From NCBI GenBank assembly GCA_964358845.1, contig CAYHQC010000001.1, positions 1 to 47,396 on the forward strand: 47,396 nucleotides of DNA, given 5' to 3'. The notes under the pieces are model-generated. The model saw nothing but the letters and a program-made list of their open reading frames with translations, did no database searches and was not told where the DNA came from. The stretch is from an uncultured Gammaproteobacteria bacterium (GTDB taxonomy: Bacteria; Patescibacteriota; Microgenomatia; UBA10105; UBA927). Shown piece after piece: positions 4,126 to 43,074 of this stretch (the stretch's first letter is position 1; each line of letters begins with the position of its first letter). The position numbers were made by a program, and so were the translations under genes.

Positions 4126-5123
4126 ACATCACGGTTTTATACAATAAGCCCACGGCACGATTTATCAAAAATGCGACATTCATGCAGGCAGAGGAAGACA
4201 CCGAAGAATCGGCCCGAGAAGTGGCGGAAGCGCTCAAGGAAAAAGGAGCTAAGCCTACATTGGTCGCTTTAACAGAAAATACCATTGAATCAGTTATTTC
4301 TTCCTTACCTTTTGATTTGATATTTAATCTTATCGAATGGACCGGTGTAGATACGCCGTATGCTATAAAAACATATGATGCGATGAACGCTCGCGGATTT
4401 TACTACACAGGGGCTACTCTAGAGACATATTTGTTATCGTGTGATAAGTCGATGATGAAAAAGCACTTAGACGAAGCTTCCCTGCCTACTGCGCGTTGGC
4501 AATTATTTTTAAGCGGCAATGAACACGTACGAACAGATTTTCATTATCCCTTGATTGTAAAAGTAAGCAGCGAACATTCAAGTGTCGGATTGTCAAAAGA
4601 AGCGATCGTAAACGACGTAAAAAGCTTGATACCTATTGTCAAAAAAAGACTTGCTGAATACCAGCAACCTGTGTACGCAGAAGAGTTTTTATCAGGGCGT
4701 GAATTTCAGGTGACACTGTTAGAAAGGTCATCAGGACTGACTGTTTTTCCGATATCCGAAGTGCGCTACACCAATGGCACGGATGTACCGTTTTTGACCT
4801 ATGCCAGCCGTTGGAACGCAAATCACAGGGACTATCAAAATTCTGATGTGATTTTAGCTAAACTAACAAAAGAGCTTCAAGAAAAAATTGAAGAGATGAG
4901 TAAAACTGCATTTACGACATTTGGCTATCGAGATTATGCACGGTTTGATATCCGTTGCCAAAACAAAGAGCCTCTTTTTTTGGAAATAAATTCAAATCCC
5001 GGGTTAAGCGATGATGCAGAGTATGGCATGACCGTTTCGTATAAAGCGCTCGGGTTGACGTTTGCTGATTTTGTGTGGGAAATAGTCGAGTCCGCACTTA
5101 GGCCTCATCCGATAATAACTTGA
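4122..5123 (+). CDS. ATP-grasp ligase (D-Ala-D-Ala ligase / RimK-like family)
   Basis: ATGA start/stop overlap with the upstream gene. Ddl-like layout with DKSMMKKHL, YPLIVKVSSEHSSVGLS and FLEINSNPGL. Confidence 0.65.
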   Translation: MNITVLYNKPTARFIKNATFMQAEEDTEESAREVAEALKEKGAKPTLVALTENTIESVISSLPFDLIFNLIEWTGVDTPYAIKTYDAMNARGFYYTGATLETYLLSCDKSMMKKHLDEASLPTARWQLFLSGNEHVRTDFHYPLIVKVSSEHSSVGLSKEAIVNDVKSLIPIVKKRLAEYQQPVYAEEFLSGREFQVTLLERSSGLTVFPISEVRYTNGTDVPFLTYASRWNANHRDYQNSDVILAKLTKELQEKIEEMSKTAFTTFGYRDYARFDIRCQNKEPLFLEINSNPGLSDDAEYGMTVSYKALGLTFADFVWEIVESALRPHPIIT

Positions 5124-5163
5124 ATGTATCGGTGCGGCACAAAGGGCCGTAGCGAACGAGCCC

Positions 5164-14266: not shown

Positions 14267-14284
14267 CTATACCATTTATTAAAG

Positions 14285-23704: not shown

Positions 23705-23798
23705 AAAGAATCTATTGGTATATTTAATTTTATTTGGATGTATTTTGCTGGCGAGCTCTAGTCTAGCGGAAGTTGAATAATGTCTCAATGAGTATTTT

Positions 23799-23833
23799 CC
23801 ACATCGGGGGTGGAATAGCTTCGCACATCGGGA
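23799..23833 (+). repeat. REP-A copy 1 (CCACATCGGGGGTGGAATAGCTTCGCACATCGGGA)
   Basis: Lies 2 nt after the stop of RAYT-1. Identical to copy 2. Confidence 0.9.
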
Positions 23834-23835
23834 AA

Positions 23836-24510
23836 TTATGATTCATCTATGGCTACATGTCTTATAAAAGCTAATTCTTTTTGGTAGTCTGCTTGGTCAA
23901 ATGTGAATGATTTAAATGACTCAAGCGTTTTAAAAAAACTTAGAATTTTATTTGTATTGCAATATATATTTCTGTCATTGAGGTATTCTGAGAGAGATGA
24001 CCATTTATATTGAATAAGATCTTCTATTTCTTTTATCATGTATGCTGTGAACGGATTTAGATGAATATATCGCAAGATATGTAATAATTGCTCGTCTGAT
24101 TCTATTCGAATTGCTTTGAACGAGCCTTGGAAAAGGGGCCCTATGCGTTCATTTTTTGTATTGAAATATTTTGTGTAACTATCTTGGGATTTTTTCATAA
24201 ACATTGAGATACCGCCGTCACTCACCTGTTCGAGAAGAAGGTGATAGTGATTGGGCATTAGAACAAATCCAAGAAGTTTGACATCCAGAGGTTGGAGAAG
24301 TTGAGCTTGTTGTATTTGTGCACGATCTTCTAAATTTAGCTTGAGAAAGTTGGTGTATTTAAAGGGTTGTTGTGTGGTCCGATAATATGTAAGCACATCA
24401 AGGAATCGTTTTCGGGAACGATCGTCAGAAAAAATATCACGTTTTTCAACTCCACGATTAAAAATATGGTAAACCTGATTTGTAATAAGAGGTATTAGTC
24501 GGTATGGCAT
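23836..24510 (-). CDS. IS200-like / REP-associated tyrosine transposase (RAYT), HUH Y1 family
   Basis: LMPNHYHLLLEQ (HUH) and RYIHLNPF (catalytic Tyr motif). Bracketed by REP-A copies. Confidence 0.8.
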   Translation of the reverse strand: MPYRLIPLITNQVYHIFNRGVEKRDIFSDDRSRKRFLDVLTYYRTTQQPFKYTNFLKLNLEDRAQIQQAQLLQPLDVKLLGFVLMPNHYHLLLEQVSDGGISMFMKKSQDSYTKYFNTKNERIGPLFQGSFKAIRIESDEQLLHILRYIHLNPFTAYMIKEIEDLIQYKWSSLSEYLNDRNIYCNTNKILSFFKTLESFKSFTFDQADYQKELAFIRHVAIDES

Positions 24511-24546
24511 ATTTATATCTAAGTATACACAAATTTGTTAGTTATT

Positions 24547-24581
24547 CCACATCGGGGGTGGAATAGCTTCGCACATCGGGA
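24547..24581 (+). repeat. REP-A copy 2
   Basis: Identical 35-mer, 37 nt upstream of the RAYT-1 start codon, in direct orientation relative to copy 1. Confidence 0.9.
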
Positions 24582-24631
24582 TATTAAAGCGCTCTTGTCA
24601 TTTTTGTACTGCCCTTGTTTCAAAAGCGCGC

Positions 24632-25399
24632 ATGCTCCATACTGCATATATGGAGTTGATTTTTCTTTTTTTCGTTGGATTATGTGTTGGATCGTTTGTG
24701 AATGTTCTTGCTGACAGGCTGCCGATGGGAGAAGATGTATTAGTATCTCGCTCGCATTGTGATTATTGTAAAAAAATCCTTTCATGGTATGAGCTTATAC
24801 CCGTTCTTTCCTATATTCTGCTACAGAGACGTTGTCGGCATTGTCATAAAGTATTGTCTTTTCAGTATCCGTTCATTGAGCTTATTACAGGTATTGGGTT
24901 TGTGGCAATTGCCCTGATGTTTGGTATGTATACCGGTTTATTTGTAGCATTGTCAGTCGTCTTTGCAATGAGTTTAGTGATATTGGTTGCTGACTTTAAA
25001 TATTTCATCATTCCTGACGTGACACTTCTTGTAATGGGGCTTGTGGGACTATTCGCTCTTACCACACTCCCCTTTCAGGATGTGAAAATTCATTTATTGA
25101 GTGCAGTACTGTCCTTTGTTGGCTTTTTATTTCTTTACCTTTTCACGAAACGGAAAGGAATGGGATTTGGTGATGTGAAGCTTGCCGGTGTTATGGGGTT
25201 ACTATTGGGGTTTCCAAACATTATCATCGCTTTGTATACCGCTTTCTTGACCGGTGCAATGGTCGGTGTCATACTCATGATAGTAGGAAAAGCAAAGATG
25301 AAAACGAAAGTGCCTTTTGGACCGTTTCTCATCATTGGTATGGTCGTTTCTTTTGTATATGGATTGCCTATATATAATTGGTGGATGAAATTGTTATGA
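24632..25399 (+). CDS. pilD: Prepilin peptidase / N-methyltransferase PilD (A24 family)
   Basis: CxxC...CxxC zinc motif (CDYCKK...CRHCHK), GFGDVKL active-site Asp motif, polytopic. The ATG at 24650 is an alternative start. Confidence 0.9.
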   Translation: MLHTAYMELIFLFFVGLCVGSFVNVLADRLPMGEDVLVSRSHCDYCKKILSWYELIPVLSYILLQRRCRHCHKVLSFQYPFIELITGIGFVAIALMFGMYTGLFVALSVVFAMSLVILVADFKYFIIPDVTLLVMGLVGLFALTTLPFQDVKIHLLSAVLSFVGFLFLYLFTKRKGMGFGDVKLAGVMGLLLGFPNIIIALYTAFLTGAMVGVILMIVGKAKMKTKVPFGPFLIIGMVVSFVYGLPIYNWWMKLL

Positions 25400-25929
25400 A
25401 ATCATATATACCCTTCTTACCTGAGTTTGTCCCGCCAAAGGCGGGGCTAACTCGGTCTAGAAGGAGTTATGCGCGGAACAATTCCGATTGTGAAGGGTAT
25501 ACCAAGGCCTTTACTTTGATAGAATTACTCGTTTCTATATCTATAATAGGAATACTGGTGACCATTGGCATCGCATCCTTTGCGACAATAAATAAACAAA
25601 CCCATGATGCAAAGCGAAAAAGTGATATTGAGCAAGTGAGGTCAGCGCTTGAGATGTATCGCTCTGATATGAAATATTATCCAAGCGGAGGCTGTGCAAG
25701 TTCCAGCTGTACTGCTGTAGATGTTCAAACAATCGCCACAGACATAGTAGACTACATGGCTGCAATTCCTACAGATCCAAACAAAGTACAAAAGTATTGG
25801 TATCGGGCAACAACACTGGTTAATGGTCTGTATTACGGATATTGTCTCAGTGCTAATCTAGAAGGTGCTGTGCCGACAGATACCTGTGTTCCCGATGGCG
25901 AGTATAATTGGGGAGTAAGTAATCCATGA
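25396..25929 (+). CDS. Prepilin-type N-terminal domain protein with an unusually long leader
   Basis: KA/FTLIELLVSISIIG. The ATG at 25396 overlaps the pilD stop (ATGA). The 36-aa leader contains a GC hairpin (25431-25445). Confidence 0.65.
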   Translation: MKSYIPFLPEFVPPKAGLTRSRRSYARNNSDCEGYTKAFTLIELLVSISIIGILVTIGIASFATINKQTHDAKRKSDIEQVRSALEMYRSDMKYYPSGGCASSSCTAVDVQTIATDIVDYMAAIPTDPNKVQKYWYRATTLVNGLYYGYCLSANLEGAVPTDTCVPDGEYNWGVSNP

Positions 25930-26405
25930 ATTGGCATACAAAGGGATTTACTCTTATCGAGCTTCTTACGGCTATCACTGCGTTAAGTCTCGTATTGTCT
26001 ATTTCTGGCGCTAGCTATAGCAAATTTAATCGGAAAACGACGTTAAAGCAAGCGAGTCTTACGTTAAAAACCAATCTTCGATCGGTGCAGTTTCGCGCGA
26101 TAAATGGTCAAAAGCCTACGAACATAACATGTACACAGCTTGATGGGTATAGCGTTTCATTTACGAGTTCAAGTTATTCGTATCAAGCGTCGTGTACGCC
26201 AGAAGCTTTAGATGCGCCCGTAACCACGGTTGCCCTTGCTAAAGGAGTCACATTTTCTCCGGTACCCAGTGCCATATTGTATAAAGTATTGGGGGCTGGA
26301 ATCGATAAGGAAAGCCAGATACAAATTACCTTAGTTAATTCGCTTGCCTCTTATATACTTGCTATTAATCCAAACGGAGAAATTATTGATTTAGGTGAGC
26401 AATAG
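25926..26405 (+). CDS. Minor pilin / pseudopilin
   Basis: MNWHTKG/FTLIELLTAITALSLV. 4-nt overlap with the upstream gene. Confidence 0.75.
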   Translation: MNWHTKGFTLIELLTAITALSLVLSISGASYSKFNRKTTLKQASLTLKTNLRSVQFRAINGQKPTNITCTQLDGYSVSFTSSSYSYQASCTPEALDAPVTTVALAKGVTFSPVPSAILYKVLGAGIDKESQIQITLVNSLASYILAINPNGEIIDLGEQ

Positions 26406-26417
26406 CAAGGGATACGT

Positions 26418-26864
26418 ATGAACACACGTTTAAAAGTTCGATTATGTAAATCTTCAGGCCAGTCGCTCATCGAGATGCTTCTCATGATAAGTTTAGTCGT
26501 TGTGTTGGTGACCAGTATTGTGGTTGGCAGTACGGTGAGTCTTAAGAATCAACAAATAAGTAGTTCGAAGGATCAAGCATTACGATACGCGCAACAAGGT
26601 GTAGAAATAGTACGGGCGCTTCGTAATACAGATTGGACATCTTTTCAATTATATTCAGGAAGTTGGTGCATAGATAAAGATGGTATTTTGACTGCTTTAG
26701 TAGATGCGTGCTCTCCGCTTCTTGATGAAAAATATCAACGCGTCGTCACGTTTACATGGGATGCATTAAATGAGCGTATGAGTGTCGAGGTACTCGTATC
26801 ATGGAACATCGGATCCAAAGCGTACGCAACTATGCTGGAGAGTTACTTTACCGATTGGAAATAA
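26418..26864 (+). CDS. Minor pilin-like protein
   Basis: SSG/QSLIEMLLMISLVVVLV, a prepilin-like N-terminus. Confidence 0.6.
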   Translation: MNTRLKVRLCKSSGQSLIEMLLMISLVVVLVTSIVVGSTVSLKNQQISSSKDQALRYAQQGVEIVRALRNTDWTSFQLYSGSWCIDKDGILTALVDACSPLLDEKYQRVVTFTWDALNERMSVEVLVSWNIGSKAYATMLESYFTDWK

Positions 26865-26878
26865 CAATAATAATATTT

Positions 26879-27427
26879 ATGAAAAATCTTAAACGAACAA
26901 AAGGGTTTACCCTCCTTGAAATCGTGGTATCGCTCGGAATTTTATCGGTACTGGGTATCGTGTTAACCCAGTCATTTATTTCTTCTGTACGTACGAGTAC
27001 CAAAGGCGAGATTACTCAAGAAGTGGTGCAGAGCGGAAATTACGCAGTCGAGGTCGCTTCCCGTTTACTTCTCAATGCAAGTACTGTGGTGTCTCCTTGT
27101 ACCTCAGGCGGCACTTCGTCATCATCTTTTATCGTTACAAACCCCGATGGGCAAAATAGTACGTTAGGGTGTGTGAGCAATAGTGATGTTTTACGTATTG
27201 CTTCAAGCAGCGCCTCCAGTGTGTCGTACCTTACCAGCAATGCGGTGACCTTAAGTGGCGCTGACTGCGCAAGTGCGTTAACCTTTGTGTGTAAAATTGT
27301 CGGTGACAGCAATGCTACGGTGAAAATGTCATTTTCCCTTTCGCAAAAAAATGCCGATGCTCGTGTCTATGAAAAAGCATCCTTTCCATTTGAACTGTCA
27401 GTTACCCTGCGAAACTATCACCCTTAG
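26879..27427 (+). CDS. Minor pilin / pseudopilin whose last codons and stop lie inside REP-B copy 1
   Basis: MKNLKRTKG/FTLLEIVVSLGIL; start at the ATG at 26879. The terminal ...tat cac cct tag is part of the repeat. Confidence 0.75.
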   Translation: MKNLKRTKGFTLLEIVVSLGILSVLGIVLTQSFISSVRTSTKGEITQEVVQSGNYAVEVASRLLLNASTVVSPCTSGGTSSSSFIVTNPDGQNSTLGCVSNSDVLRIASSSASSVSYLTSNAVTLSGADCASALTFVCKIVGDSNATVKMSFSLSQKNADARVYEKASFPFELSVTLRNYHP

Positions 27428-27455
27428 GGTGGACTAGCTTCGCACCCTTTCCTTT
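27417..27455 (+). repeat. REP-B copy 1 (TATCACCCTTAGGGTGGACTAGCTTCGCACCCTTTCCTT)
   Basis: Exact reverse complement of 30491-30529 over 39 nt. Lies 3 nt after the RAYT-2 stop. Confidence 0.92.
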
Positions 27456-27458
27456 AAA

Positions 27459-28148
27459 TTATTCATCAGTATCTACATCTATAGCGAGGTGTTCAATTTT
27501 TGCAAATTGATGTTTATATCCAACCTGATCATGAGTGAATGATCTCAAAGAATTAATAGTATGAAACTGACTTTTTACAAAATGTGTGTCACAAATGGAC
27601 TCAGAATGTTCAAGCAGATATTCAGGTAATGACGTCCATGGATATGTGTCAAGTTCTTCTTCCTTTATTATCAATCCAACGACAGGGTTAATGTGTGTAT
27701 ATCGAATGACGTGGAGCAATTGTTCGTCTGTTTCTATGTGTACGGCCTTAAATGGGTGCTGCCAAAGTGATCCGGTGCGTTTGTGCCGAATATTAAAGTA
27801 TTTTGCGAAGCTGTTTGAAATATTTGAAAGAAACGTTGTCACACCGTTATCTTTCATTTGTTTGAGAGTAAAATGAAAGTGATTTGGCATGAGCGAGAAA
27901 GCGTATAAGGACACTTCCATGTCCCCTTTTTGTTCAAGTCGGTCCATGACGTTTTTTTGTACATCAACAGATAATGACGAGTATTGCGAATATCGCATGG
28001 GAAGGTGAGCAAAACGATAGAAGCGGATGAGGTCTTTCATATGTTGATATTCACGCTTAGAGGTAAAGACAGGACGTCGTTCAACACTACGATTGAATAC
28101 GTGATAGGTTTCATCAGTAGAGAGGATGAGACTTCGGACATTCGCCAT
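27459..28148 (-). CDS. IS200-like / REP-associated tyrosine transposase (RAYT), second paralog
   Basis: LMPNHFHFTLKQ (HUH), RYTHINPV (Tyr motif). Same domain order as 23836-24510. Confidence 0.8.
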   Translation of the reverse strand: MANVRSLILSTDETYHVFNRSVERRPVFTSKREYQHMKDLIRFYRFAHLPMRYSQYSSLSVDVQKNVMDRLEQKGDMEVSLYAFSLMPNHFHFTLKQMKDNGVTTFLSNISNSFAKYFNIRHKRTGSLWQHPFKAVHIETDEQLLHVIRYTHINPVVGLIIKEEELDTYPWTSLPEYLLEHSESICDTHFVKSQFHTINSLRSFTHDQVGYKHQFAKIEHLAIDVDTDE

Positions 28149-28188
28149 TAGAGATACGATATCTCAAGTAAAGATCGGAGTCAAGGAC

Positions 28189-28219
28189 GGGGTGCGAAGC
28201 TAGTCCACCCTAAGGGTGA
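28189..28219 (-). repeat. REP-B copy 2 (inverted relative to copy 1)
   Basis: GGGGTGCGAAGCTAGTCCACCCTAAGGGTGA, 40 nt upstream of the RAYT-2 start. Shares the TCAAGGA left flank with copy 3. Confidence 0.9.
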
Positions 28220-28261
28220 GAGGTTCTTTACTCTTTCCTTTAAGTTTCCTACACTGTATTC

Positions 28262-29902
28262 ATGCACGAACGGCAAAGTCCAGCAGGTGTGTCAGTAGAA
28301 AATCAAACAAAAACTGTGTGGTATGGCGTGGGCAAGGCTGTTGAGAAAGGTGCACGTGCTTTGGGTCCTGAAAGCTGGCGCAAAAGAATTCTTTATATTA
28401 TAGATACGCAAATCATCCCCCGTTCAAATCCCAAGTGGCAAGAGTGGGCTAAAACACATAGACAAGAGCTTGAAAACGTTGCAGCAGTTGCAGGAGTAAG
28501 TATTACGGTAGCAGAAATTTCACTAGGTTCCGTCGCTCTATTGTGGGGGGCTAAACGGTTTACGAAATTACTAGAACAGAGTCGTTTAAATAAAAAACTT
28601 GAAAAGCGTTGGGGAAAGTATCCGGTAGCATGGGTGAAGAATACCCCATCAGAGTTATCCTTTTTTCAAGCGCAAATATTTGATAAATTATCAAATACAT
28701 TTGGTATTAGTACTGCGCGAAATGTGTCAGACACCATGAAGACTCTCGTGTATTCTAAAGACATGGTTAATCAACAAGTTACATGGAATAGAGTAGTGAG
28801 CCTTGCAAATGCAGGAAAAGTTGCTGCAGCGCTTGGCCTTTTAGAACATATATTTCAAGAAGGATTTACGTTGGCCGGAAAAAGGCATGGTTGGGCGGAT
28901 GAAATTCCTAATGCATTTAAAAAGTTTTATGCGAGAAAATTTCTTTTGCCGGTATGGTTAGAGACTCCTCAGGTAGAAGAAGTTGCTTCTGCTGGCGTGA
29001 AAGACAGGAAGCATTCAGTCAATGATGTAGTCGATGCTTTTGCAAGAATTCGGGATTATATGCAAACTCCAACATATCTACGTTCGTATAGAAATCAAAC
29101 GAGACAATTTTTAAAAACTAACCCATCTGATCGACTACTTTCATCAGGGCTAGTGAGTACTATGGAAGCGATGAGAAAATATCTTCTTCAACCAAAATCA
29201 AGTGAAGGAATAGTTACTAACTTTATCCCGCCCGCATTAGTTGATGACGCAGTTTTAGGACAGCATCAGTCAATTCCAGCTGGTTGGCTGGATCAATTTC
29301 AAAATCACCTTGCAGGTATAGCCGAAAAAGACTTTCCTGTTAAAGCACCTAAAGAACGGTATGCGACGATAACCTATGACCGGAAACTTAAGGAACTGCT
29401 ACGAAACGATCGATTGGAACCAGTTACGTTTAAAAAACCCAATGGATTATTGGAGCGAATACGACGTGTGCTTAAAGGAATAAAAAACCCTCAACAGATT
29501 CGTGAGCCTTTAGAAGGAGCTGATAGTGAAGCTTTGGGATTTTTTTCTGGTAAAGAGTTATACGGCCCTTTTCTATACGATAAGCCCAAACAAGTTTTAT
29601 TAATAGAGCCATCGGATGACAAACCAATGATTAATCTCAAAGGATTTTTTCAAACAGAAACTTTTCTCGATCGCAAATGGAGGGAAAAGGTTGAGAATGA
29701 ACATAATCGTGGCACTGTTCAGGCAAGAAAAAATCTAGAACAAGCGCGGATGAAATACGGAGAAAAACATCCTTTAGGAATATATTCTGACAAACTTAAG
29801 TTGCGAATGAAGGAATCTGGAGAACAATTATTATTGGCTGAGTCTATCAAAAAGAAGAGTAGAAGAAACAAAAAGAATGGGAAGATGCTCGTTTCCGCTT
29901 GA
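28262..29902 (+). CDS. Hypothetical 546-aa protein with one predicted TM segment and a Lys/Arg-rich C-terminus
   Basis: Long uninterrupted ORF with no recognisable catalytic motif. Hydrophobic segment VAAVAGVSITVAEISLGSVALLWG. Confidence 0.55.
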   Translation: MHERQSPAGVSVENQTKTVWYGVGKAVEKGARALGPESWRKRILYIIDTQIIPRSNPKWQEWAKTHRQELENVAAVAGVSITVAEISLGSVALLWGAKRFTKLLEQSRLNKKLEKRWGKYPVAWVKNTPSELSFFQAQIFDKLSNTFGISTARNVSDTMKTLVYSKDMVNQQVTWNRVVSLANAGKVAAALGLLEHIFQEGFTLAGKRHGWADEIPNAFKKFYARKFLLPVWLETPQVEEVASAGVKDRKHSVNDVVDAFARIRDYMQTPTYLRSYRNQTRQFLKTNPSDRLLSSGLVSTMEAMRKYLLQPKSSEGIVTNFIPPALVDDAVLGQHQSIPAGWLDQFQNHLAGIAEKDFPVKAPKERYATITYDRKLKELLRNDRLEPVTFKKPNGLLERIRRVLKGIKNPQQIREPLEGADSEALGFFSGKELYGPFLYDKPKQVLLIEPSDDKPMINLKGFFQTETFLDRKWREKVENEHNRGTVQARKNLEQARMKYGEKHPLGIYSDKLKLRMKESGEQLLLAESIKKKSRRNKKNGKMLVSA

Positions 29903-29935
29903 CGGACATATAAACGATTGTGCTATATTCATGGT

Positions 29936-30475
29936 ATGAAGAAGTTGATTCATACGTCATCCTCAAATCAAATCTTGCAGAAGAAAGATATCCACGCCTT
30001 GTCATTAAAGATTGATCGCAATCAAAAGGCACTTGATCAATTGGATGGGATATCAAAAAAGATTGATCGCAATCAAAAGGCGCTTGATCAATTGGATGGG
30101 ATATCAAAAAAGATTGACCGTAACCAGAAAGCGCTGGATCAGCTGAATGGGATATCAAAAAAAATTGATCGCAACCAAAAGGCACTGGATATTCTTGTCA
30201 CATATGAAGAAAATTTGAAGCTGATAGGTCCAACCTTTAAAATTTTACAGGAGAACGAAGAAAATTTGAAGCAATTGGGTACTTTACACCAAAGACTCGA
30301 TACGTTGGATAAGATTATGGTGACGGTCGATAAAATGGCAGGAAGCATGCAAACATACCAACAAGAAATAGCACTTCTCTCTCCGAGAGTTTCAACGCAT
30401 ACAGATGATATAGAAAAAATTGATAAACGTCTCGAAGTGATTGAAAAGCAGTTACATAATTCTCTTACACAGTAG
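29936..30475 (+). CDS. Coiled-coil protein with 3.6 tandem 17-aa repeats (KKIDRNQKALDQLDGIS)
   Basis: First in-frame ATG at 29936. Repeat copy 3 differs from copy 2 by 8 synonymous and 1 nonsynonymous change, which argues for real coding. Confidence 0.65.
   Translation: MKKLIHTSSSNQILQKKDIHALSLKIDRNQKALDQLDGISKKIDRNQKALDQLDGISKKIDRNQKALDQLNGISKKIDRNQKALDILVTYEENLKLIGPTFKILQENEENLKQLGTLHQRLDTLDKIMVTVDKMAGSMQTYQQEIALLSPRVSTHTDDIEKIDKRLEVIEKQLHNSLTQ
30008..30193 (+). repeat. 51-nt tandem repeat, about 3.6 copies, inside the coding sequence
   Basis: Units at 30008-30058, 30059-30109 and 30110-30160, plus a partial unit from 30161. Confidence 0.9.
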
Positions 30476-30490
30476 TAGAGGATGTTTATC

Positions 30491-30529
30491 AAGGAAAGGG
30501 TGCGAAGCTAGTCCACCCTAAGGGTGATA
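30491..30529 (-). repeat. REP-B copy 3
   Basis: Perfect 39-nt reverse complement of 27417-27455. Confidence 0.92.
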
Positions 30530-30672
30530 ACACCAAAGAGAAATCAATGTTGTTAATTGCTATAGCGGCCGCTATAGTAAAAGACAACGAACAGAAAAAG
30601 TTGGTATAGTAGAAAATACGTGCTCTATATCACATTGACAACGAGCTTCCTATAATATATTATAGGCTAAGT

Positions 30673-42785: not shown

Positions 42786-42833
42786 GTGTAATCATATTGT
42801 ATCTTCGAATAGAACTTATTTCTACTAGTTTAT

Positions 42834-42868
42834 CCACCTCGGGGGTGGAATAGCTTCGCACATCGGGA
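42834..42868 (+). repeat. REP-A copy 3 (one mismatch), solitary, between the tyrS operon and recG
   Basis: CCACCTCGGGGGTGGAATAGCTTCGCACATCGGGA, 49 nt upstream of the recG start. The downstream ATATTA flank is shared with copy 2. Confidence 0.9.
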
Positions 42869-43074
42869 TATTACTTGATGCGTAGGCATGAAATTGAACA
42901 GTTTTTTTTGGAGAAGGAGAAGGGAATGGTTTCGTCTAGAAGACTCGACTAGCACTCTATGAGAGAATTATTGAAGGCCGCCGGCCAATAGCGGGATAAA
43001 GGATGTGGCTACCAAAGCCAAGGAAGCGATAACCACAATCACCTTCCAAACCATTTCATGTTTTCTAAAAAAGT

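What the first reader, a model, noticed from the sequence alone, without database searches (positions are those of the whole stretch)
23799..30529. Two RAYT-type transposase paralogs, each with its own REP family; the families share a core and have covarying arms
REP-A is CCACATCGGGGGTGGAATAGCTTCGCACATCGGGA (copies at 23799, 24547, 42834). REP-B is TCACCCTTAGGGTGGACTAGCTTCGCACCCTTTCC (copies at 27419, 28189 and 30493; the last two are inverted). Both contain the core GGTGGA(A/C)TAGCTTCGCAC. The flanking arm differs between families but is repeated within each element: CACATCGGG twice in REP-A, CACCCTT twice in REP-B. The central GGTG(G) can pair with either the upstream or the downstream CAC(C) arm: CACCC-TTA-GGGTG or GGGTG-N11-CACCC in REP-B, and CCAC...GTGG or GTG...CAC in REP-A. 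Arm changes that keep the pairing between the two families are what a structured single-stranded DNA substrate of an HUH Y1 enzyme would show. Each family sits a few nt after the stop and 37-40 nt before the start of its own RAYT, which suggests matched enzyme-repeat pairs.
Basis: partly seen in the sequence, partly recalled or inferred. Interest (0 to 1): 0.7.

Follow-up and report, generated by a model that had tools for sequence, protein, structure and literature searches.

The report
RAYT-like genes with matched hairpin repeats
Two diverged copies of a single-strand-DNA cutting enzyme gene in a tiny groundwater bacterium are each bracketed by their own short hairpin repeat; this is a low-copy, previously undescribed version of a known kind of bacterial repeat system, and it turns out to be common across this bacterial group.

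Summary
The 18-nt core occurs six times in the window, against 0.06 expected by chance. Two Y1 HUH genes, 40% identical, are each flanked on both sides by their own roughly 40-nt unit.

Related loci show the pattern is general in Microgenomates (CPR). Homologs are bracketed by a 5-8 bp hairpin followed directly by the box TAGCTT(G/C)(A/G)CAC. The stem sequence changes between loci but stays complementary, and the repeats co-diverge with the protein.

The enzymes are RAYT-like: Y-x3-NP motif, and TnpA_REP is the best fold match. Their motifs are closest to TnpAY1 subclass 2.1 (Group 1 RAYT, "TIRYT").

- The repeats are low copy: one solo per family in 47 kb, and at most 5 exact cores per MAG.
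- They lack GTAG.
- The A-versus-B arm difference is a shift of the helix, not a compensatory change.

Sister genomes differ in whether the RAYT-B cassette and one solo REP-A are present.

In the usual arrangement the 5' unit's box also supplies the -35 hexamer of the gene's promoter.

Verdict: a real feature, a new variant of the REPtron/TIRtron kind, of moderate interest.

The parts
23796..23835 (+). REP-A unit 1. Hairpin TTCCAC-ATCGGGG-GTGGAA, box TAGCTTCGCAC, tail ATCGGGA. It lies 2 nt past the RAYT-A stop codon and is antisense to the gene.
   Evidence: Exact core match. Covariance-model hit of 43.0 bits. Folds as a 6-bp hairpin.
23836..24510 (-). RAYT-A, a 224-aa Y1 HUH protein with motifs PNHYH and RYIHLNP.
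   Evidence: Pfam Y1_Tnp 34.4 bits against a cut-off of 23. NCBIfam REP_Tyr_transpos 51.6 bits, below its cut-off of 80. AlphaFold2 model pLDDT 88, best PDB match 4er8 TnpA_REP at E 4e-7. dN/dS 0.19 against the sister ortholog.
24544..24583 (+). REP-A unit 2. It lies 36 nt upstream of the RAYT-A ATG and is antisense to the gene, so the two flanking units are direct repeats. This arrangement is atypical for the family.
   Evidence: Only the RAYT-A orthologs show the 5' antisense / 3' antisense arrangement.
27405..27417 (-). Degenerate box on the opposite strand (TAGTTTCGCAG, read on the - strand) that shares the REP-B hairpin. Together they form a double-footed palindrome that overlaps the 3' end of the pseudopilin-like ORF 26801-27427.
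   Evidence: Folds at -9.6 kcal/mol, z -3.75. Also present at the RAYT-B-less site of the sister genome.
27415..27454 (+). REP-B unit 1. Hairpin CACCC-TTA-GGGTG, box TAGCTTCGCAC, tail CCTTTCC. It lies 5 nt past the RAYT-B stop codon and is antisense to the gene.
   Evidence: 36.2 bits.
27459..28148 (-). RAYT-B, a 229-aa Y1 HUH protein with motifs PNHFH and RYTHINP. It is 40% identical to RAYT-A.
   Evidence: The nearest other homolog is 62% identical.
28156..28184 (-). Promoter-like site TTGACT-17-TATCGT, ending 7 nt before the RAYT-B ATG. Its -35 hexamer lies in the tail of REP-B unit 2.
   Evidence: Consensus scan.
28183..28222 (-). REP-B unit 2. It lies 40 nt upstream of the RAYT-B ATG, in the sense orientation, inverted relative to unit 1. 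This is the typical family arrangement.
30491..30530 (-). Solo REP-B unit 3. It forms a perfect 39-nt inverted repeat with unit 1. Synteny with the sister genome ends exactly at its outer foot.
   Evidence: (inverted repeat I2).
42831..42870 (+). Solo REP-A unit 3, intergenic. It carries one substitution that lengthens the stem.
   Evidence: 45.5 bits. The orthologous copy is present in the sister MAG (L020).

Best explanation
These are two REPtron/TIRtron-type loci of a clade found across Microgenomates. Each holds a single-copy gene, under purifying selection, for a RAYT-like Y1 HUH nuclease/strand-transferase. Each gene is bracketed by its own ~40-nt DNA unit.

The unit has three parts:
- a 5-8 bp hairpin with a fixed centre;
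- immediately 3' of it, the conserved box TAGCTT(G/C)(A/G)CAC;
- a short family-specific tail that partly repeats the 5' arm and loop, 24 nt downstream.

Inferred mechanism, by analogy with E. coli TnpA_REP and IS608 TnpA:
- On transiently single-stranded DNA the enzyme recognises the hairpin by shape and by a few stem bases.
- It reads the adjacent conserved box base-specifically. On the other strand the box lies 5' of the hairpin, where GTAG or the guide sequence lies in the known systems.
- It cuts and rejoins DNA near the hairpin foot.
- This occasionally copies or moves units, giving the few solo copies, and causes gain or loss of DNA at unit boundaries.

In the usual arrangement the hairpins face outward and the boxes inward. 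There the 5' box also supplies the -35 hexamer of the gene's promoter, so enzyme binding there would plausibly repress its own gene.

Shown here: the anatomy, the covariation, the co-divergence of gene and repeat, the low copy number, the presence/absence differences between genomes, and the promoter-like geometry.

Inferred only: binding, cleavage, the strand used, and autoregulation.
For: **Enzyme**
- HUH and Tyr motifs are invariant in 24 aligned homologs.
- The only PDB sequence hit is TnpA_REP.
- The best fold match is 4er8, then IS608 and ISDra2 TnpA.

**Adjacency**
- In 80 metagenome loci holding homologs, nearly all have hairpin repeats 0-50 nt from the stop codon and 10-60 nt from the ATG.
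- 34 of the 80 have a hit to the hairpin+box covariance model within 200 nt of the gene. Only 2 hits lie farther away in 354 kb.

**Structure**
- In a set chosen only by box match (at most 1 mismatch) and proximity to a homolog, 74.5% of cells pair against 63% in shuffles (0/500) and 36-45% in slid controls.
- That set has 27 double-change cells against 12.6 expected.
- The same result holds on 106 distinct units.

**Matching of gene and repeat**
- Protein identity against repeat identity gives rho 0.33, with 0 of 2000 Mantel permutations as high.
- Solo REP-A copies are identical or nearly so to the copies flanking RAYT-A, although the A and B enzymes are only 40% identical.

**Dynamics**
- The RAYT-B cassette is absent from five assemblies of a sister genome that is 90-93% identical. 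There only the hairpin remains.
- A third genome has a unit plus a second hairpin and no gene at the same locus.
- A solo REP-A is present in the sister genome and absent from the window at about position 14270.
- Three alignment breaks fall at hairpin feet.

**Not IS-like**
- RAYT-A sits at the same locus in six assemblies, with dN/dS 0.19.
- Homolog P0076 has the same neighbours on 24 contigs.

**Promoter**
- TTGACA-17-TAnnnT occurs in 23 of 31 5' sense units against 1 of 30 3' antisense units (Fisher p 5e-9).
Against: - No biochemical evidence exists, and nothing here shows which strand or which position is cut.
- Copy number is low, so dispersal by the enzyme rests on a handful of solo copies.
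- The solo REP-A polymorphism is not a clean insertion, because the flanking intergenic DNA has also diverged.
- Co-divergence of gene and repeat could simply reflect physical linkage.
- RAYT-A has the atypical direct arrangement and no REP-borne promoter.
- 46 of the 80 homolog loci do not match the hairpin+box model. They carry other hairpin repeats.
- The NCBIfam RAYT model scores below its cut-off.
Confidence: 0.7

Rival explanations
1. Each gene plus its two flanking units is an autonomous insertion sequence of the IS200/IS605 or TIRtron type that moves as a whole. The units are simply its ends, and the solo units are footprints or broken ends.
For: - The RAYT-B cassette is present in the window lineage and absent from the sister genome.
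- The cassette is 99.8% identical between two samples, while the adjacent ORF546 is 90.3% identical.
- The units abut the gene ends as IS ends do.
- According to the literature, Group 1 RAYTs are the most IS-like RAYT group.
Against: - No near-identical second copies of either gene were found. The paralogs are 40% identical and the next RAYT-B relative is 62%.
- RAYT-A and P0076 are fixed at one locus across many assemblies.
- The motifs are class 2 (Y-x3-NP, NH[YF]H), not IS200 type (Y-x3-Q, DH[VI]H).
- There is no tnpB gene.
- The right edge of the cassette difference lies about 35 nt beyond the unit rather than at it.
- ORF546 evolves fast in any case, which weakens the identity-step argument.
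Confidence: 0.15
2. The units are mainly regulatory DNA or RNA elements of the gene: a promoter/operator at the 5' side and a stem-loop at the 3' side. They have no role in DNA cleavage. The solo copies are relics of lost genes, or chance retention.
For: - The box of 5' sense units is a perfect -35 hexamer with a -10 hexamer 17 nt downstream in 23 of 31 cases.
- L030 shows that units can outlast loss of the gene at a locus.
Against: - The same box and hairpin are conserved in 3' antisense and solo units that have no -10 hexamer (1 of 30 and 2 of 28).
- In the window both families carry TTCGCA, a poor -35.
- Solo REP-A copies are identical to the gene-flanking ones, which is not expected of old relics.
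- The encoded protein belongs to a family whose solved members bind exactly this kind of hairpin.
- No terminator-like T run follows the hairpins.
Confidence: 0.1
3. The repeats are coincidental palindromes or an assembly artefact.
For: Some hits to the 17-base core pattern in high-GC genomes look like chance. About 70 chance hits would be expected in 596 Gb; this figure is my own estimate.
Against: - Six exact copies in the window against 0.06 expected.
- The same architecture occurs next to homologs in dozens of independent assemblies.
- The same copies appear in five independent assemblies of the sister genome.
Confidence: 0.01

Closest known systems
REPtron: E. coli/Pseudomonas RAYT (TnpA_REP; TnpAY1 subclasses 2.2 and 2.5; Bertels Groups 2 and 3) with GTAG REPs/REPINs
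   Same: - A Y1 HUH enzyme with the Y-x3-NP motif and a TnpA_REP-like fold.
- The gene is bracketed by cognate palindromic repeats, usually in inverted orientation.
- Several diverged paralogs can sit in one genome, each with its own repeat family. This is stated as general in PMC6006769.
- A single-copy gene at a stable locus.
- A conserved sequence lies directly next to the hairpin foot.
   Different: - No GT[AG]G. The conserved element is the 11-nt box TAGCTT(S)(R)CAC.
- The hairpin is short (5-8 bp) with a fixed centre.
- Copy number is of the order of 5 per genome rather than tens to hundreds.
- No REPIN doublets in the window.
- The protein is about 225 aa, with an N-terminal YHxxNRG segment and a roughly 70-aa C-terminal tail.
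- NCBIfam RAYT scores are below the cut-off.
- Phylum: Microgenomates (CPR).
TIRtron / TIRYT (Di Nocera 2013, PMC3733652) = TnpAY1 subclass 2.1 (Quentin 2018, PMC6006769) = Group 1 RAYT (Bertels 2017, PMC5581495)
   Same: - The motif signature NH[YF]H, FQ, Y[IV]HLNP, SS in the tail, and a length near 238 aa match one of the two motif sets listed for subclass 2.1.
- The genes are flanked by inverted repeats at fixed short distances, some of them self-complementary, and these belong to only moderately abundant repeat families.
   Different: - The HTH-like C-terminal domain reported for subclass 2.1 (Bac_DnaA_C, HTH_23, HTH_28) was not detected in 24 members.
- The reported TIR motif GGGGWSAS is matched only 6-7 of 8 by the 3' arm region.
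- Quentin et al. found no REP-like structures for subclass 2.1. Here a hairpin with covariation is the core of the repeat.
- CPR genomes were not covered in those surveys, and no paper in the searched library links RAYTs with CPR.
IS200/IS605 ends (IS608, ISDra2 TnpA)
   Same: - The HUH/Tyr fold.
- Subterminal hairpins with an adjacent short sequence that guides recognition.
- The direct arrangement around RAYT-A resembles left and right ends lying on one strand.
   Different: - Class 2 motifs and a longer protein.
- Not multi-copy.
- The two ends are the same unit.
- The usual arrangement is inverted.
- No tnpB gene.

Membership tests
RAYT / TnpA_REP (TnpAY1 class 2) | HUH motif plus a catalytic Tyr in a Y-x3-NP context | tested here: met
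   H88, H90, Y148 and P153 are invariant and N152 is at least 90% conserved across 24 homologs. RAYT-A reads PNHYH / RYIHLNP and RAYT-B reads PNHFH / RYTHINP.
RAYT / TnpA_REP (TnpAY1 class 2) | Y1_Tnp domain and a TnpA_REP-like fold | tested here: met
   Pfam PF01797 scores 34.4 and 29.0 bits against a cut-off of 23. The profile hits only 4er8 in the PDB. Foldseek's best match is 4er8_A, E 4e-7, TM 0.64 normalised to the target.
RAYT / TnpA_REP (TnpAY1 class 2) | Score above the NCBIfam REP_Tyr_transpos (NF047646) equivalog cut-off | tested here: not met
   51.6 and 47.5 bits against a cut-off of 80.
RAYT / TnpA_REP (TnpAY1 class 2) | Gene flanked by cognate palindromic repeats (REPtron) | tested here: met
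   Units lie on both sides of both genes. The same holds for homologs.
RAYT / TnpA_REP (TnpAY1 class 2) | Repeats carry a 5' GT[AG]G tetranucleotide at the hairpin foot | tested here: not met
   No GTAG or GTGG tag at the foot. The conserved element is TAGCTT(S)(R)CAC, 0-3 nt 3' of the hairpin.
RAYT / TnpA_REP (TnpAY1 class 2) | Repeats dispersed in tens to hundreds of copies (REP/REPIN population) | tested here: not met
   Six units in 47 kb, four of them flanking genes. At most 5 exact cores in any GTDB representative MAG. Two non-flanking model hits in 354 kb around homologs. MAGs are incomplete and only exact cores were scanned, so these counts are lower bounds.
RAYT / TnpA_REP (TnpAY1 class 2) | Single-copy gene at a stable locus rather than IS-like | tested here: met
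   RAYT-A sits at one locus in the window and in L005 and L113-L117, with dN/dS 0.19. P0076 has the same neighbours on 24 contigs. RAYT-B varies in presence between sister genomes.
RAYT / TnpA_REP (TnpAY1 class 2) | Enzyme binds and cleaves its repeat as single-stranded DNA | not testable with these tools
   Needs biochemistry.
TnpAY1 subclass 2.1 / Group 1 RAYT / TIRYT | Motif signature NH[YF]H, FQ, Y[IV]HLNP, SS in the tail, median length about 238 aa | tested here: met
   The consensus of alignment A1 reads MPNHFH, PLFQG, RYIHLNP, WSSL, at 224-240 aa, matching Table 1 of PMC6006769. This is a motif comparison only. The authors' HMMs were not available.
TnpAY1 subclass 2.1 / Group 1 RAYT / TIRYT | C-terminal HTH-like domain (Bac_DnaA_C, HTH_23 or HTH_28) | tested here: not met
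   None of the 24 members matches these Pfam families at E up to 1. The model shows a helical tail at residues 162-220.
TnpAY1 subclass 2.1 / Group 1 RAYT / TIRYT | Flanking terminal inverted repeats with the GGGGWSAS motif | tested here: inconclusive
   The inverted arrangement holds for RAYT-B and is the commonest in the family (13 clean cases). RAYT-A is direct. The 3' arm region (GGGGTGGA, GGGTGGAC) matches GGGGWSAS only in part. The published TIR sequences are in a figure that is not held.
IS200/IS605 insertion sequence | Short TnpA (about 150 aa) with DH[VI]H and Y-x3-Q motifs, many near-identical copies, often with tnpB | tested here: not met
   The motifs are NH[YF]H and Y-x3-NP and the length is about 225 aa. 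tblastn finds no further copies in the window. Homolog clusters are mostly on one contig. The neighbouring genes are pilus and glycosyltransferase genes.

The most novel reading that the evidence does not exclude
The hairpin+box units may act as recombination sites for a single-strand, integron-like cassette exchange system run by the RAYT-like enzyme. In this reading DNA is cut and rejoined at hairpin feet, so the units mark the points where gene content differs between co-existing CPR strains. Units that carry TTGACA would act as portable promoters for whatever lands beside them.

Three kinds of evidence are compatible with this but do not establish it:
- three alignment breaks between sister genomes fall at hairpin feet;
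- the RAYT-B locus exists in three allelic states;
- arm duplications and tandem box-hairpin-box arrays with a 24-nt period occur.
Probability: 0.12. Interest if true: 0.7.

Novelty: new variant of a known kind. Interest (0 to 1): 0.45.

Why it matters
RAYT/REP systems have been described almost only in Proteobacteria, Cyanobacteria and Bacteroidetes. The published surveys read here give three relevant statements:
- The largest RAYT group (subclass 2.1 / Group 1) has no REP-like structures (PMC6006769).
- Alternatively, it has only ill-defined inverted repeats (PMC3733652).
- No paper in the searched library links RAYTs with CPR bacteria.

The evidence here points the other way:
- A large Microgenomates clade exists, with more than 800 homologs at E below 1e-5.
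- It has a well-defined, covarying hairpin plus an 11-nt conserved box next to the gene.
- It includes natural pairs of diverged enzymes and repeats in one genome.

Such an A/B pair is a ready-made specificity-swap experiment for learning how Y1 enzymes read a hairpin plus a flanking sequence. The finding also shows small repeats and gene-content differences at their edges in very reduced genomes.

The general idea, one RAYT paralog with one repeat family, is already established, so a specialist would be interested but not surprised.

Tried and rejected
1. **Internal arm repeat as a target-site duplication.** Rejected. It is the same in every copy of a family and differs in length between families (9 nt against 7 nt).

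2. **Internal repeat as a strong family-wide rule.** Only weakly true. There are 3.28 matches of 9 against 2.85 in permutations, and 19 of 2000 permutations reach the observed value. Much of the repeat is the generic CACC(T) that follows the box. Several loci have box-hairpin-box arrays with a 24-nt period, so partial tandem duplication fits better than a pairing constraint.

3. **Alternative hairpin (3' arm with distal CAC) as a conserved feature.** Rejected for REP-A, where it is only 3 bp. It is plausible only for REP-B.

4. **RAYT-A at different sites in the window and the sister genome.** My first reading of the flanks was wrong. Alignment shows the same locus with an 80-nt indel at the hairpin foot.

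5. **ORF546 and ORF185 as cargo between REP-B copies.** Rejected, because both are present in the sister genome that lacks RAYT-B.

6. **Genome-wide counts.**
   - The 294-kb and 151-kb contigs could be read only in 20-kb pieces.

7. **Rfam.** No known RNA family at the repeats.

8. **Clean empty site for the solo REP-A.** Not obtained, because the flanks have diverged.

9. **Step in identity at the RAYT-B cassette edge as proof of recent transfer.** Not accepted, because ORF546 is fast-evolving.

10. **Terminator function.** No T runs follow the hairpins.

Full report
**1. The observation**

The core GGTGGAMTAGCTTCGCAC occurs six times without mismatch, at 23809+, 24557+, 27428+, 28192-, 30500- and 42844+. 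Chance expectation is 0.06.

- The repeat finder recovers a 48-nt REP-A family with three direct copies.
- It also finds REP-B as a 44-nt inverted pair around ORF 27459-28148, plus a perfect 39-nt inverted repeat between 27416 and 30529.
- Two stated REP-B starts are off by 1 and 4 nt. The 42834 and 28185 copies carry one and two substitutions.
- The internal repeats CACATCGGG and CACCCTT are present 24 nt apart.
- The units lie 2 and 5 nt past the stop codons and 36 and 40 nt before the ATGs.
- The two REP-A copies flank their gene as direct repeats. The two REP-B copies flank theirs as inverted repeats.

**2. The proteins**

ORFs 23836-24510(-) and 27459-28148(-) are 224 and 229 aa and 40% identical.

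- Both match Pfam Y1_Tnp above its cut-off.
- Both match NCBIfam REP-associated tyrosine transposase below its cut-off: 51.6 and 47.5 bits against 80.
- RAYT-A has more than 800 homologs at E below 1e-5. Nearly all are about 225 aa, and where a source names the organism it is a Microgenomates lineage: Gottesman-, Davies-, Shapiro-, Chisholm-, Woyke- or Levybacteria.
- In 24 aligned members the invariant or near-invariant motifs are YHxxNRG, MPNH[FY]H, PLFQ, RY[IT]HLNP, WSS and DQADYQ.
- A profile of the family hits only TnpA_REP (4er8) among PDB sequences.
- An AlphaFold2 model (pLDDT 88) matches 4er8 best, at E 4e-7. The IS608, ISDra2 and IS200 transposases follow.

**3. Anatomy of the repeat across related loci**

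A scan of GTDB representative genomes for the core found it in Microgenomates MAGs: Levy- and Gottesmanbacteria, a "Microgenomates group" MAG, and MAGs labelled Gammaproteobacteria that are collinear with the window. It also gave hits in high-GC genomes that look like chance.

A protein-anchored metagenome scan gave 80 loci with homologs. Almost every one has a hairpin-containing repeat within 0-50 nt of the stop codon and 10-60 nt of the ATG.

Units from different loci align essentially without gaps. Each unit has these parts:
- a hairpin with a fixed centre, a near-invariant core CAC/GTG, and variable inner and outer pairs;
- 0-3 nt of spacer;
- the box TAGCTT(G/C)(A/G)CAC;
- a tail that usually starts C(C/T).

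In this common register REP-A has extra outer pairs (TTC/GAA) and a 7-nt loop. REP-B has extra inner pairs (CC/GG) and a 3-nt loop. The difference between A and B is therefore a shift of the helix, not a compensatory change.

**4. Tests of structure and matching**

I chose units without regard to pairing: box with at most one mismatch, lying within 170 nt of a homolog.

| Measure | Observed | Shuffled control | Slid control |
|---|---|---|---|
| Cells paired | 74.5% | 63%, 0 of 500 as high | 36-45% |
| Double-change cells | 27 | 12.6 | not given |

- Six of eight pairs show changes on both sides.
- A covariance model built from 44 units found 113 hits in 552 kb, and these give the same picture.
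- The repeat of arm plus loop 24 nt downstream is strong in REP-A and REP-B. Family-wide it is weak: 3.28 against 2.85 matches of 9, with 19 of 2000 permutations as high.
- Some loci have box-hairpin-box arrays with a 24-nt period.
- Repeat similarity rises with protein similarity: rho 0.33, with 0 of 2000 Mantel permutations as high. Physical linkage alone could contribute to this.

**5. Arrangement and promoter**

Relative to the gene, the commonest arrangement is a sense unit at the 5' side and an antisense unit at the 3' side. The hairpins face outward and the boxes inward, which is the arrangement of RAYT-B. Only the RAYT-A orthologs have both units antisense.

In 23 of 31 5' sense units the box reads TTGACA and is followed after 16-18 nt by TAnnnT, which ends 7-12 nt before the ATG. 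The same geometry appears in 1 of 30 3' antisense units and 2 of 28 solo units (Fisher p 5e-9).

- RAYT-B has TTGACT-17-TATCGT in the tail of its 5' unit.
- No such site was found for RAYT-A.

These are consensus matches, not mapped promoters.

**6. Copy number and dynamics**

- Only one solo copy of each family lies in the 47-kb window.
- No GTDB representative MAG has more than 5 exact cores.
- Only 2 model hits lie more than 200 nt from a homolog in 354 kb.
- Clusters of units do occur in some MAGs (L006, L011).

The window is a Hainich groundwater contig. A sister genome from the same site, 90-93% identical and collinear, was seen in five assemblies. Compared with the window:
- It has RAYT-A and both REP-A units at the same locus.
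- It lacks the RAYT-B cassette. There only the hairpin remains, with a degenerate box on the other strand.
- It has a solo REP-A where the window has none.
- It loses synteny exactly at the outer foot of the 30491-30530 unit, where it carries an IS3-like gene.

A more distant MAG has, at the RAYT-B locus, one unit plus a second hairpin and no gene.

RAYT-A has dN/dS 0.19 against its sister ortholog. Homolog P0076 has the same neighbours on 24 contigs.

**7. How it most likely works**

The following is inferred from the solved TnpA_REP and IS608 complexes (PMC3479197). The enzyme binds the folded hairpin on single-stranded DNA, reads the adjacent conserved box base by base, and cuts and rejoins nearby. 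Read on the complementary strand, the box lies 5' of the hairpin, where GTAG and the IS608 guide sequence lie.

This would explain several things:
- why the hairpin and box are kept in all units, whether or not they serve as a promoter;
- why the families are enzyme-specific;
- why solo copies are identical to the gene-flanking ones;
- why rearrangement edges coincide with hairpin feet.

Binding at the 5' unit would overlap the -35 hexamer and could repress the gene. None of these steps was shown here.

**8. Comparison with known systems**

The idea that each RAYT paralog has its own flanking repeat family is established (PMC6006769).

By motifs and length the clade matches TnpAY1 subclass 2.1, which is Bertels Group 1 and largely the TIRYTs. 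That subclass was reported either to lack REP-like structures or to have inverted repeats with GGGGWSAS.

Differences found here:
- a covarying hairpin plus an 11-nt box;
- no GTAG;
- no detectable HTH tail;
- low copy number;
- a CPR host.

It is not an IS200/IS605 element by motifs, copy number or stability. No paper in the searched library links RAYTs with CPR.

**9. Verdict**

It is best filed as a new variant of the REPtron/TIRtron kind, of moderate interest. The main open points are biochemical activity, the strand and site of cleavage, and a true genome-wide census.

Noticed in passing
window 25400-25505; L008 481-584: A ~106-nt element with terminal inverted repeats (atataccctt ... aagggtatac) lies between the prepilin peptidase gene and a pilin-like gene and overlaps the 5' end of ORF 25378-25929. 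The sister genome has a second copy, inverted, at a different site (equivalent to window ~14190). It looks like a small MITE and has no Rfam match.
   Followed up: partly
window 5096-5149; L012 217-270: A 54-nt hairpin-rich intergenic segment is 98% identical to a segment of an otherwise unrelated contig of the sister MAG. There it lies about 110 nt from a solo REP-A. It may be another small repeat or a small RNA or terminator.
   Followed up: no
window 30002-30190 (ORF 29918-30475): 51-nt tandem repeats, 82-90% identical, encode about four copies of KKIDRNQKALDQLDGIS in a coiled-coil-like 185-aa protein. Only weak sub-threshold family matches were found.
   Followed up: no
window 30528-30530 onward; L114 1-1297: Collinearity with the sister genome stops exactly at the outer foot of the solo REP-B unit. 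At that point the sister carries an extra partial arm copy (AATCACCCTTT) and an IS3-like rve integrase gene, and the window's downstream genes are absent there.
   Followed up: partly
window 28262-29902 (ORF546): This 546-aa ORF has no family match and diverges much faster than its neighbours. It is about 82% identical in DNA to the sister genome where flanking genes are about 92%. It is 90.3% identical to contig L112, where the adjacent RAYT-B cassette is 99.8% identical. It may be a variable surface protein.
   Followed up: partly
L030 5571-5640 (CAYIBX010000037.1): At the locus upstream of the ORF546 homolog, a third genome has a complete REP-B unit, 5 nt, then a second CTCACCCTTAGGGTGA hairpin, and no RAYT gene. 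This is a third allelic state of the RAYT-B locus.
   Followed up: partly
L005, L008, L012, L016, L020, L022, L030 (records CAYIXE01, CAYIBX01, CAYISM01): These MAGs are titled 'uncultured Gammaproteobacteria bacterium'. CAYIXE is collinear with the window at 90-93% identity, and all named homologs of the window's RAYT genes are from Microgenomates. The taxonomic label looks wrong.
   Followed up: no
L006 234-273, 445, 1814-1852; L011 2838-2970, 4403-4469, 5639-5705: Some Microgenomates MAGs carry clusters of units, with several hairpin+box copies and inverted doublets within 0.1-2 kb and no RAYT homolog in the 8 kb held. Denser BIME-like arrays therefore exist in relatives.
   Followed up: partly
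L083, L097, L050, L106 and other metagenome loci: About half of the RAYT-homolog loci do not match the hairpin+box model. They are flanked by other hairpin repeats, for example ACGATCCCGTATCGT types and a 64-nt direct repeat in L097. This suggests further repeat architectures in the same protein clade.
   Followed up: no
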